From assembly GCA_964016885.1 (NCBI GenBank), contig OZ024750.1, positions 20,770,001-20,834,000 of the forward strand: 64,000 nucleotides of DNA. The letters run 5' to 3'. Both the position numbers and the translations under genes were made by a program. The notes under the pieces were generated by a model. That model did no database searches. It worked only from the letters and a program-made list of their open reading frames with translations, and had not been told where the DNA came from. The DNA comes from Eledone cirrhosa. Taxonomy: Eukaryota. Positions 31,090-45,950 of this stretch are shown one piece after another; the first letter of the stretch is position 1; each line of letters starts with the position of its first letter.

Positions 31090-32332
31090 GCTCTCTCTCT
31101 CTCCGTTGAATGTCTTAAATGCCGTAATCATTAGCACATATTTTTTAACTCTCCATCTCCTCTGTTTTTTTTTTTTACTTCTTTCTTTGTTTATTATCCT
31201 TCTCTCTCAACAGATATTCTCTACTTTCCTTGCTCTCATTATCTAACCCTTTTCCTTTGTAACTCGCTCCCTCTCTAGCCCATTTCTCATGAGCACGTTC
31301 GCTTTTAGACTTATTCTTTGTCTAGACTTCCCATCTCTATCTGTAGACCATTTCCATTATTCTCTCTTCCCCCTCTCTCTCTTTTTCTCTCGATCATTCG
31401 CCTTCCCACAGTATCTCCGGCCTATTTTTCTAGTCTTCTCCCTTTTTTTTCTTTCACTCATCGTTATATATCTCTATAATGTTCTCTAATAAATATAGAT
31501 TTTCACCTCGCTTCTTCATTCAAACGTGTTTTCTTCTCATCGATCATTCAATCGTTAACTCTAATCGACTCCCCCTCCATACCTAAATCCAGTAGCCATC
31601 ATTCATATAAAGGACTATCAGGACACACCACAGCTTCTATAATCACTTGATTGAAGACATACTTTCCCCAGCTGTTACGACAATACATTATCCTTCCAAC
31701 TGTAGAATCACAACATAAATCAAATCCACAGCCCTTATCCTAAATCTCAAACCCACCAATGTATACACGTGCCGCGAGAAATGTTTTACCACAAAACAAA
31801 CATCTATAGCAAACGTCATATCTATACACGAATGCGTGTTTGAATTAGGCCTGCCTATTGTATTACAATCAAAAATGGCGCGAAATAATTTAATGGATCC
31901 CTTTATATATATGTATATATATATATAAAGAAAAAAAGATGAAATCGAAAATGCAACTGGAGTCTTATTTTTGTTTAAATATATATATTTATTTGGTTCC
32001 TTTACCGGTTTCGCAGTTCTTCTTTATACTTTCACTCGTGTAGGACACCTCGGTTATTTTTCATTTTGTAAAAAACCTCACTTTCTAATAGATATATATA
32101 TATATACAGTGAGAGAGAGAGAGAGAGAGAGAGAATATAGTAGTGATTGGATTTCGATGGGGGAAATCGAAGACTGCTTCAACATGTACTGTCTGTTTTA
32201 CTCAACAAGTGAATCACTTATCATACTGTTTCGATGGTGTTCACTCGTGGGTGCAATGAAGGTAATTCCAGGCGTGTTTATATATCATATAGTACGTAAC
32301 ATGAATACATCAATTTCACACTTAAAGGACTG

Positions 32333-40604: not shown

Positions 40605-40900
40605 ATGATTGCTTGCTCAACAAAGATGAGTGTCTCAGTTTTCGCTACATTGATTTTCATTCCAGCCATGCAGCAGTCAGCATCAAATCTATCGAATGTA
40701 AATCACAGATCAACTTCTGTTAAGTTAAGTAACACAATGTCGTCTGCAAATTCCAGCCAACTGATTTCACACTCGCCAGTCGTGATATCACTTCTAACCC
40801 GGCTGTGCATGTCAATCCTGTTGATGTAAATAATGAACAGGAGAGGTGTCCCACATTAAATGGTTTTGAACACCATTTATCTTAACACAGACAGCAACAA
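40605..40900 (-). pseudogene. RTE-clade LINE reverse transcriptase fragment
   Basis: Translation PLLFIIYINRIDMHSR..EISWLEFADDIVLL..DL*FTFDRFDADCCMAGMKINVAKTETL: FADD motif and GMKIN..KT, with an in-frame stop. Confidence 0.85.
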
Positions 40901-43984: not shown

Positions 43985-44285
43985 TAATTGTTTCTATTTT
44001 TGGCACAAGGCCAGCAATTAACCAGTACATTACTGGTACTTTATTTTATCGACCCCGTAAGGATGAAAAGCAAAGTTAACCTCGGCGGGATTAGAACTGA
44101 GATCATAAAAGGAGGTAATGGTTTCTTATATAGGCACATGGTCAGCAATTTTGGAAGAGGGGAAAGTCGATTAAATCGACCCCAGTACGTGAGTGGTACT
44201 TTATTTTATCGACCCCGTAAGGATGAAAAGCAAAGATAACCTAGGCGGGATTTGAAAGCATGTCTAACCCTCTACCGATACTCCT
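43985..44285 (-). mobile_element. Two tandem SINE copies; other minus-strand copies at 60480-60650 and 60870-60958, and an internally deleted plus copy at 58960-59110
   Basis: Reverse complement of the SINE core and tail next to an (AAT)n tract. Confidence 0.88.
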
Positions 44286-44444
44286 TCATTACATTTATTG
44301 GTTGGTGATGCGCGTTTCAATACTGACATGTAACGATCTGACACTACTCTGGAACCAAGAGCTCGTTGGACCTCTGACGTGAACCTATACATCGACTGCT
44401 CACCTGCATGAAGCTACTCCCTGGATATATATTTATATATATAT

Positions 44445-45152
44445 ATACATATGAATGTATATATAGTGTATTTTGCAATACACTGTATGCTTAATTAAAA
44501 GCATTTTGAAGACCTTACGCTATTGTTTTAGAGTAGTTTCAGTCTCACTTACTTAAAATTTTCAGCAAACAGGGGCAGATAAAGCTGACAGAGCTCTGTT
44601 TCGTACTATTTGGTACTTATCAAAGCTAGGTACTCCACCTGTTTGCTGAAAATCATGAATGTTTGATTCTTATAGAATTCTAGTAATAATCAGGAACTGA
44701 TTATACAGAGCGGTTGCCGGTCAAGCAGACATTGAAAATTAGAATTGGTGCTCTGAAATAGCGATATATATATGAATGTATATATAGTGTATTTTGCAAT
44801 ACACTGATATTTCAGAGCACCAATTCTAATTTTCAATTTCTGCTTGACCGGCAACCGTTCTGTATAATCAGTTCCTGATTATTACTAGAATTCTATAAGA
44901 ATCAAACATTCATGATTTTCAGCAAACAGGTGGAGTACTTAGCTTTGATAAGTACCAATCACTCCGAAACAGAGCTCTGTCAGCTTTATCTCCCCCTGTT
45001 TGCTGAAAATTTAAAGTAAGTGAGACTGTCACTACTCTAAAACAATAGCGTACGGTCTTCAAAATGCTTTTAATTAAGCATACAGTGTATTGCAAAATAC
45101 ACTATATATACATTCATATATATATCGCTATTTCAGAGCACCAATTCTAATT
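44445..45152. mobile_element. Retrozyme-like element: inverted pair of ~1.1-mer copies of a 321-bp monomer
   Basis: atgaatgtatatatagtg at 44451 and 44772 (period 321); tttcagagcacc at 44810 and 45131 (period 321); the right half is the reverse complement of the left; TA flanks. Confidence 0.85.
44915..45010 (+). ncRNA. Type I hammerhead ribozyme with U3-A8 core and extended stem I (mirror copy at ~44558-44653, minus strand)
   Basis: Minus copy reads agct TTGATAA gtac caaata gtac GAAA cagagctctg TC agct, enclosed by attttcagcaaacagg/cctgtttgctgaaaat. The plus copy has a damaged stem II. Confidence 0.75.
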
Positions 45153-45170
45153 TTATATATATATATATAT

Positions 45171-45950
45171 ATAACAATTATAAAGTTAGAAAAAATAGTA
45201 GACCGTAGATATATAACTATTTTTTCTTCAATGTCCCGAGTGGTTAATGTCGACAACACACAATCTCACATACTTGTGAAAAAGTATATGTGTATATATA
45301 CATGTGTATGTATGTATGTATGCACATATATGTGTGTACCTCTCATTATTGTCTCAAACTCCCTCACGGTAGAGTAACCACGGAAGTATAGTAACTGCTT
45401 TCAAGCAAACACTATAAACATTTTCAGTCAACCTACCACCCCACTTTAGCCTCTGTATCATATCAATATCCCCCTCCGCCTTCTGCGATATTTTTCACTG
45501 CTACAAGGGATTTAGTCCCCTTTCTTGACCGGTGTATCACGTGATAGAGTCTCCCTCTGACTTTTTGAGATTTTCTCGCATGCTACGGATGTATTTAGAA
45601 GCGCTCTTTGCCCGGGGTATTCCCTTGAAAAGCTGGCTTACCTCACAACAATGTTGCATCTCTATGATGTAACATTTTTGCATACTGACCAGCGAAACTG
45701 TACAGTCGAGACATTGAAGAAAAAATAGGTATATATCTGAGTCTACTATTTATTCTTACTTTATAATTGTTACATAGCTCTGATATCGATTCAATTTCAT
45801 TATTTCGATTATCTTGCCTTTCATAATCATAGAGCAACACTGGTTAAGGTCGGCAACGCACAATCTCACATACTTATGAAAAAGTATATGTGTATATATA
45901 CATAGGTATGTATGTATGCACATATATGTGTGTACCTCTGATTATTATAT
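45171..45950. mobile_element. Complex PLE-like locus: inverted arm, decayed hammerhead and ~110-bp direct duplication
   Basis: 45171-45238 is inverted at ~45706-45772; GAAA ctgtacag TC gaga at ~45693-45711; 45240-45350 is repeated at ~45840-45946. Confidence 0.65.

What the first reader, a model, noticed from the sequence alone, without database searches (positions are those of the whole stretch)
44445..45152. Circularly permuted 321-nt ribozyme-bearing monomer inserted as an inverted pair: candidate cephalopod retrozyme/circRNA
Seen: each arm is longer than one unit, terminally redundant with an exact 321-bp period. The two arms have different endpoints, are inverted relative to each other, and sit between TA tracts. 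The monomer has no ORF, one hammerhead motif and many hairpins (gtgtatt..aatacac, tgctt..aagca, taatcag..ctgatta, and a 16-bp ttttcagcaaacagg stem). Known: metazoan non-LTR retrozymes are small monomers with type I hammerheads that yield circRNAs and are proposed to be mobilised by Penelope-like RT. Inference: this is reverse transcription around a circular or tandem RNA combined with PLE-type inversion.
Basis: partly seen in the sequence, partly recalled or inferred. Interest (0 to 1): 0.85.

Follow-up and report, generated by a model that had tools for sequence, protein, structure and literature searches.

The report
Penelope-spread hammerhead retrozyme with dimer switch
This is one of thousands of genomic copies of a 321-base non-coding repeat with a conserved hammerhead ribozyme motif; its insertions carry the marks of Penelope-type retrotransposons, and it likely spreads through a small RNA circle whose ribozyme is predicted to be off in the single unit and on in tandem units.

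Summary
Observation confirmed: two inverted arms (44451-44806, 44808-45154), each about 1.1 units of a 321-bp non-coding monomer with a type I hammerhead, lie between TA tracts. The locus is not special: the family has at least 3,477 exact probe hits, 34 of 61 sampled loci are inverted pairs, and a 315-bp sister family exists. The 3' ends are fixed at two sites about 34 nt apart; 51 of 63 inverted pairs have one end of each kind. This is the Penelope-like element (PLE) 'tail' signature, and coding PLEs of this genome show it too. So the permutation comes from internal priming plus 5' truncation, not random entry. The ribozyme covaries across subfamilies (core 3-8 pair, stems II and III). It is predicted to be blocked by a conserved helix as a monomer circle and to form a double hammerhead in tandem units. 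This fits a circular intermediate, but no RNA data were listed, a test for cleaved templates failed to replicate, and the partner PLE and cephalopod host were not established. Verdict: new member of the non-LTR retrozymes. The scan noted hammerhead/PLE elements earlier in a rotifer and a fungus, not this family.

The parts
44451..44806 (-). Left arm, 356 bp, about 1.1 units (q277-321, then q1-311); 5'-truncated; 3' end at the tail-less initiation site
44808..45154 (+). Right arm, 347 bp, about 1.08 units (q2-321, then q1-27); 3' end carries the tail
44807..44807 (.). Single junction base that matches neither arm's continuation
   Evidence: sequence; family base at q1 is C in 166 of 201 unit rows
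44558..44654 (-). Intact type I hammerhead domain on a 16-bp closing stem; core UUGAUAA (U3-A8) at 44623-44617; predicted cleavage between 44587 and 44586
44914..45010 (+). Hammerhead domain of the right arm; core 44945-44951; predicted cleavage site after 44981; stem II broken by changes at 44962 and 44964
44588..44599 (-). 12-nt palindromic stem III (also 44969-44980 on +); predicted to pair between units to form a double hammerhead, or with the core strand to block the monomer
45118..45154 (+). PLE-type tail, about 34-37 nt, between the two reverse-transcription start sites; the best-conserved segment in the sister family
44425..44450 (.). Left (TA)n-rich target tract
45155..45173 (.). Right (TA)n target tract

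Best explanation
The locus is one insertion of an abundant non-coding 321-bp hammerhead repeat family, likely copied into a TA microsatellite by the reverse transcriptase-endonuclease of a Penelope-like element, and likely from a circular monomer RNA. Shown: copy number, two fixed 3' ends, variable 5' truncation, TA targets, copies longer than one unit, one sequence variant per insertion, and ribozyme covariation. Inferred steps: (1) a tandem locus is transcribed; (2) neighbouring hammerheads pair through the 12-nt palindrome and cut out monomers; (3) monomers are ligated, and in the circle a 7-bp helix sequesters the core so it stays uncut; (4) a PLE protein nicks both strands of (TA)n and starts cDNA at two internal sites about 34 nt apart, rolling on past one unit; (5) the two truncated cDNAs are joined head to head. 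This locus has its two ribozymes on opposite strands, so it would not release a monomer and is likely a dead end.
For: PLE signature: 88 of 93 arms end at the tail or tail-less site; 29 of 34 inverted pairs have one of each, replicated at 22 of 29. The same geometry holds in 3 of 3 inverted loci of a coding RT+GIY-YIG PLE (L067, L071, L073) and in a miniature PLE insertion at window 31924-32093. The tail equals the span between two RT start sites in vitro (PMC11167929). Template: 33 of 88 arms exceed 321 bp; 67 of 88 cross the cleavage site, 9 of them twice. Units within an insertion differ by 4.3-4.4% and share 14% of rare variants, against 7.0% and 0.4% between loci; two long arrays differ by 12-13% between units. 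Ribozyme under selection: 17 of 35 pairs change on both sides (shuffles 5.9 +/- 1.6; 0 of 500 as high); the core 3-8 pair is U-A in 34 and C-G in 3 of 38 rows; 4 of 4 stem II pairs covary. Switch: the blocking helix is 94.6% paired, with A-U to G-C in 6 rows; P 0.99 in the circular left unit; inter-unit stem III P 0.77-0.97 in 5 of 5 scorable tandem loci of 10 tried. For the window's left domain the free two-strand minimum energy equals that of the constrained double hammerhead.
Against: No RNA evidence either way. A pile-up of 5' ends at the cleavage site in sample 1 (6 vs 1.5 expected, 4 loci) did not replicate (2 vs 1.62, N=86), so there is no genomic proof of cleavage in vivo. PLE insertion in vitro used unprocessed RNA and did not need ribozyme activity (PMC11167929). 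No pLTR homology to the monomer was found in 60 PLE loci, and the tail of the best-resolved PLE family is about 63-67 nt, not 34, so the partner is unnamed. Most rare variants (86%) are not shared within an insertion; this fits later mutation but does not single out a circle, and young homogeneous arrays or gene conversion would give the same sharing. L004 joins two subfamily types in tandem. Folds are equilibrium nearest-neighbour predictions; covariation counts are sequences, not independent events. The blocking helix is only partly present in the sister family (4 of 7 pairs in L032).
Confidence: 0.65

Rival explanations
1. Same PLE-driven spread, but the template is uncut linear read-through RNA from tandem loci; the hammerhead fold is kept for protein binding, stability or occasional processing, and circles are absent or a by-product.
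For: Tandem arrays of about 14 and 17 units exist (L113, L190). Unprocessed RNA was the substrate of a PLE in vitro, and eight of nine Xenopus retrozyme dimers did not cleave. Only 3 of 88 arms exceed two units. The chimeric tandem L004 fits a heterogeneous linear template.
Against: The arrays sampled are 12-13% divergent between units, whereas units of dispersed insertions differ by 4.4%. It does not explain a covarying catalytic core together with a predicted monomer-off, dimer-on switch.
Confidence: 0.25
2. The copies are truncated pseudo-LTR ends of an autonomous PLE that was not found.
For: The ends look like PLE ends; resident PLE hammerheads also use U3-A8, and one family has the same UUGAUAA core. 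Retrozyme-pLTR kinship is reported in frogs.
Against: In the loci examined, sequence upstream of q1 is another unit or a truncation point; no arm was seen running into a conserved ORF-bearing body (read from alignment ends, not from an ORF search of every flank). No homology in 60 PLE loci.
Confidence: 0.06
3. A DNA-level product: MITE-like foldback, satellite rearrangement or assembly artefact.
For: The arms are inverted repeats in microsatellite-rich DNA.
Against: Arms have unequal, truncated inner ends and two fixed outer ends; they differ at 12 of 266 sites; independent DNA contigs end at the tail site and run into TA; the RNA structure covaries.
Confidence: 0.03

Closest known systems
Non-LTR retrozymes of animals (Cervera and de la Pena 2020, PMC7229834; Li et al. 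2026, 10.64898/2026.07.22.740005)
   Same: Short (150-450 bp) AT-rich non-coding unit with a type I hammerhead, tandem and dispersed copies, co-existing PLEs; mussel units are 350-390 bp.
   Different: Here PLE tails, TA targeting and head-to-head pairs are mapped; the 2020 main text has no 'inverted', 'tail', 'octopus' or 'cephalopod'. The core is U3-A8. That paper predicts most animal circles leave the ribozyme free to fold (some mussel circles excepted), whereas this one is predicted to be self-blocked. Expression and cleavage are untested here.
Endonuclease-bearing Penelope-like elements, including non-autonomous Chlamys/MRC1 (Craig et al. 2021, PMC8557442; Frangieh et al. 2024, PMC11167929)
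   Same: Partial tandems, an inverted 5'-truncated copy, a 30-40 bp tail on one end only, microsatellite bias, and internal RT initiation at two sites.
   Different: No ORF; the whole element is 321 bp; a full-size hammerhead instead of a minimal one; no detectable pLTR homology to the resident PLE families sampled.
Double hammerheads of newt/axolotl satellite repeats and PLE minimal hammerheads (PMC4209133, PMC7229834)
   Same: Palindromic stem III allowing dimer cleavage; U3-A8 was reported in Schistosoma PLE motifs.
   Different: There the monomer is weak because stem III is only 1-2 bp; here stem III could form 4 bp, but a competing conserved helix is predicted to block it.

Membership tests
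Non-LTR retrozyme | Type I hammerhead in each unit | tested here: met
   Covariation; 46 of 75 sampled units look intact; Rfam match is sub-threshold
Non-LTR retrozyme | Short non-coding unit, GC under 50% | tested here: met
   321 bp, GC 0.34, longest ATG ORF 35 aa
Non-LTR retrozyme | Tandem repeats with two or more hammerheads | tested here: met
   Family level: arrays L113, L190; 9 of 88 arms cross two cleavage sites. Not at this locus, where the two are on opposite strands
Non-LTR retrozyme | No LTR, PBS or PPT | tested here: inconclusive
   No LTR architecture in the loci aligned; PBS and PPT were not searched
Non-LTR retrozyme | Self-cleavage of the transcript | not testable with these tools
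   Needs in vitro transcription
Non-LTR retrozyme | Expressed as linear and circular monomer RNA | not testable with these tools
   No RNA holder listed
Non-LTR retrozyme | Autonomous PLEs in the same genome | tested here: met
   150 GIY-YIG matches scored of 10,596 candidates; 938-aa RT+GIY-YIG ORF
PLE-mobilised element | 30-40 bp tail on one end only | tested here: met
   51 of 63 inverted pairs; tail about 34-37 nt
PLE-mobilised element | 5' truncation, partial tandems, inverted 5' copy, microsatellite target | tested here: met
PLE-mobilised element | 3'-end similarity to an autonomous family | tested here: inconclusive
   None in 60 PLE loci beyond a shared terminal 7-mer with one family; only the top GIY-YIG hits were sampled
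Autonomous PLE | RT plus GIY-YIG ORF | tested here: not met
   No ORF in the unit

The most novel reading that the evidence does not exclude
An animal retrozyme whose thousands of insertions record rolling-circle copying of an RNA circle by a Penelope-type enzyme priming both target strands, with a ribozyme that switches itself off in the circle by a conserved base-paired helix and on only as a double hammerhead. It would be direct genomic evidence for the proposed retrozyme-PLE parasitism, and an RNA-only answer to how animal retrozyme circles avoid cutting themselves.
Probability: 0.45. Interest if true: 0.75.

Novelty: new member of a known kind. Interest (0 to 1): 0.55.

Why it matters
In the papers read, PLE mobilisation of animal retrozymes rests on co-occurrence, shared ribozymes and pLTR kinship, and the way circles escape self-cleavage is left open. 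This family shows the PLE-specific tail and inversion signature on a retrozyme, names the two start sites and a conserved tail segment, and predicts a monomer-off, dimer-on switch. Both questions become testable with short RNAs and a purified PLE protein. The class itself is known, which caps the surprise.

Tried and rejected
RNA evidence: no RNA holder listed; three unlabelled runs of one study, kept as contigs, behave like DNA and say nothing on expression. Cleaved linear monomer as a main template: the first signal (6 vs 1.5) failed the replication written down beforehand (2 vs 1.62; all arms of the new loci 3 vs 1.5, p 0.19). Fold-back junctions centred on the cleavage site: 6 loci vs 2 at a control palindrome, inconclusive. 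The 5' ends instead cluster near q189-195, in the 3' arm of the long stem, in both samples. Partner search: 60 GIY-YIG loci gave no pLTR homology. A Pfam family asked for was not in the library, and a protein search failed on frame and was not repeated. Pol III A/B boxes: none on the sense strand by simple patterns, so the promoter is unknown. Target-site duplications cannot be defined inside (TA)n. Rfam microRNA hits are low-complexity noise., 37 dropped some units, the window's right arm among them, through a de-duplication bug; one search repeats the analysis and is the one cited (one search gave subfamily concordance of 32 of 32 inverted and 20 of 22 tandem pairs vs 0.37 expected). L054/L008-type pairs with ambiguous types were left out of that count.

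Full report
Observation. Two arms are inverted over 327 nt at 95%. Only period 321 gives long exact runs. With q1 = 44807, the left arm (44451-44806, minus strand) covers q277-321-311 and the right arm (44808-45154) covers q2-321-27; one base at 44807 fits neither. Both outer ends run into TA tracts. The unit is 34% GC with no ORF over 35 aa. Rfam gives only a sub-threshold hammerhead match. By inspection the motif is a type I hammerhead with core UUGAUAA, stem II GUAC/GUAC, a palindromic stem III and a GUC site. The right arm's stem II is broken by two near-private changes.

Family. The 3.0-Gb genome gave 2,386 first-look candidates, 40 scored. An exact 25-mer hits 3,477 times, an exact ribozyme 29-mer 471 times, and the reversed controls 0. 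I took loci around the list on contig C1: 70 loci, 9 dropped as duplicates. Of 61, 34 are head-to-head inverted pairs, 23 single arms, 3 arrays or complex loci (left out of arm counts) and 1 other; alignments under 83% identity were ignored. A sister family with a 315-bp unit, about 75-80% identical, has the canonical CUGAUGA core, 2,715 candidates and the same architecture.

Ends. Of 93 arms, 46 end at a tail-less site, 42 at a tail site and 5 elsewhere. The sister family places the tail-less site at about q311, so the tail is about 34-37 nt. In 29 of 34 inverted pairs one end has the tail and the other lacks it; independent ends would give about 15 (my arithmetic from the arm frequencies). 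In 45 new loci the count was 22 of 29. Craig et al. describe this for PLEs: partial tandems, an inverted 5'-truncated copy, and a 30-40 bp tail on one end only (passages of PMC8557442 and its preprint). Frangieh et al. show in vitro that a PLE protein cuts and extends both strands at AT-rich DNA and starts cDNA at two internal sites that bound the tail (PMC11167929, parts 1-2 of 4).

Resident PLEs. The genome holds many: 150 GIY-YIG matches scored of 10,596 candidates. L062 has a 938-aa RT+GIY-YIG ORF with a CxxxxCxxC linker, which fits Neptune/Nematis as described. Its pLTR has a minimal U3-A8 hammerhead and two 3' ends on (TA)n; 3 of 3 inverted loci have one of each, as does a miniature copy at window 31924-32093. 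No pLTR homology to the unit was found in 60 PLE loci. The partner family is therefore not identified.

Template. 33 of 88 arms exceed one unit; 67 cross the cleavage site, 9 of them twice. A doubly cut linear monomer could give at most about 170 nt, so most templates were uncut or re-ligated. Over 342 units in 136 loci, units of one insertion differ by 4.3% (98 inverted pairs) and 4.4% (59 tandem pairs) and share 14% of rare variants. Between loci the figures are 7.0% and 0.4%; four arrays differ by 5.5-12.8% between units. This fits repeated copying of one sequence, but also young homogeneous arrays or gene conversion. The window's arms differ at 12 of 266 sites and share no rare variant. 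L004 mixes two subfamily types. A pile-up of 5' ends at the cleavage site (6 vs 1.5 expected) was retested on a sample fixed beforehand (note): 86 of 87 anchored arms were counted, 5 of them inferred, and it failed (2 vs 1.62).

Ribozyme. In 38 aligned domains that I picked to span subfamilies, 94.9% of cells pair, and 17 of 35 pairs change on both sides against 5.9 in shuffles (0 of 500). The core 3-8 pair is U-A in 34 rows and C-G in 3, and all four stem II pairs covary. Relatedness inflates such counts. U3-A8 is a known variant (passage of PMC4209133). The monomer's predicted best fold is not catalytic: a 7-bp helix pairs the stem I/core strand with the 5' half of stem III. It is 94.6% paired, core position 3 pairs in 38 of 38 rows, and one pair goes A-U to G-C in 6 rows. 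It is lower in energy than the catalytic fold in 34 of 38, though such models underrate three-way junctions. Stem III is a fully self-complementary 12-mer in 23 of 38 rows. The double hammerhead beats two monomers in 28 of 38 and equals the free two-strand minimum in 20 of 38 by my count, the window's left domain included. In real tandem loci, inter-unit stem III has probability 0.77-0.97 in 5 of 5 scorable cases (10 tried; 5 lacked two pattern matches), and the blocking helix has 0.99 in the circular left unit. These are equilibrium predictions, not measurements.

Mechanism. Most likely, tandem transcripts cut as double hammerheads, monomers are ligated (a host RtcB-type ligase is proposed in PMC7229834), the circle stays blocked, and a PLE protein copies it into (TA)n from two start sites, giving truncated arms joined head to head. 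I put PLE mobilisation near 0.9 and the circle as main template near 0.65-0.7. The main rival is uncut linear read-through RNA, which was the substrate for a PLE in vitro; eight of nine frog retrozyme dimers also failed to cleave.

Known and new. The element meets the sequence-level criteria of non-LTR retrozymes (PMC7229834, parts 2-4 of 6 and a term search; preprint 10.64898/2026.07.22.740005, parts 1-3 of 5). Cleavage and circular RNA could not be tested. Six library searches (listings only unless named above) showed no paper on a cephalopod retrozyme or on PLE tails in retrozyme insertions. A 2026 Octopus vulgaris repeat annotation has no 'ribozyme' or 'retrozyme' in its main text (PMC13282606, term search). 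The supplement of PMC7229834, which shows further invertebrate examples, could not be read, and the preprint's supplements are closed; either may hold this family, as may repeat databases. The host taxon was not tested: named PLE homologues are mostly bivalve or bivalve-symbiont records, and that genome size and TA density suit an octopus is my recollection.

Verdict. Real, common in this genome, and a new member of a known class, with unusually clear genomic evidence for PLE mobilisation and a testable self-inhibition switch. Interest 0.55.

Noticed in passing
window 31924-32093: Miniature inverted insertion of the coding PLE family of L062: a tail-less end on the left, a tail end on the right, in a TA tract; same geometry as the finding.
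   Followed up: partly
L230:1487-2102, L211, L032:2437-2882: Sister retrozyme family, 315-bp unit, canonical CUGAUGA core, 2,715 first-look candidates; same two 3' ends; the tail segment is nearly identical to that of the 321-bp family.
   Followed up: partly
L113:2821-7418, L190:458-5957, L112:1245-9169: Long arrays of the 321-bp unit (about 14 and 17 units, 12-13% inter-unit divergence) and a higher-order array with repeats of about 1,170 bp.
   Followed up: partly
L062:2274-7500 (minus), L078, L079, L252, L243: Several resident PLE families carry minimal hammerheads with a U3-A8 core; one has the same UUGAUAA core and a GCAU/AUGC stem II like a retrozyme subfamily. This may be kinship or convergence.
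   Followed up: partly
window 44022-44096 and 44182-44256: Two tandem copies (75 nt, 92% alike) of a short repeat just left of the insertion; from recall it resembles an octopus SINE; not tested.
   Followed up: no
window 44451-45154: Any read-through transcript of this or similar inverted loci would form a long, about 95% matched RNA hairpin, a likely substrate for A-to-I editing or small-RNA processing.
   Followed up: no
window 40734-40848: 115-nt match (79%) to a stretch of PLE locus L078; not examined.
   Followed up: no
L052:8058 (minus), L069:7481: Two canonical CUGAUGA hammerhead motifs unrelated to this family, hinting at further ribozyme-bearing repeat families in the genome.
   Followed up: no
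L010/L011, L024/L025, L156/L158: Pairs of insertions with near-identical flanks, probably segmental duplications; counted once.
   Followed up: no
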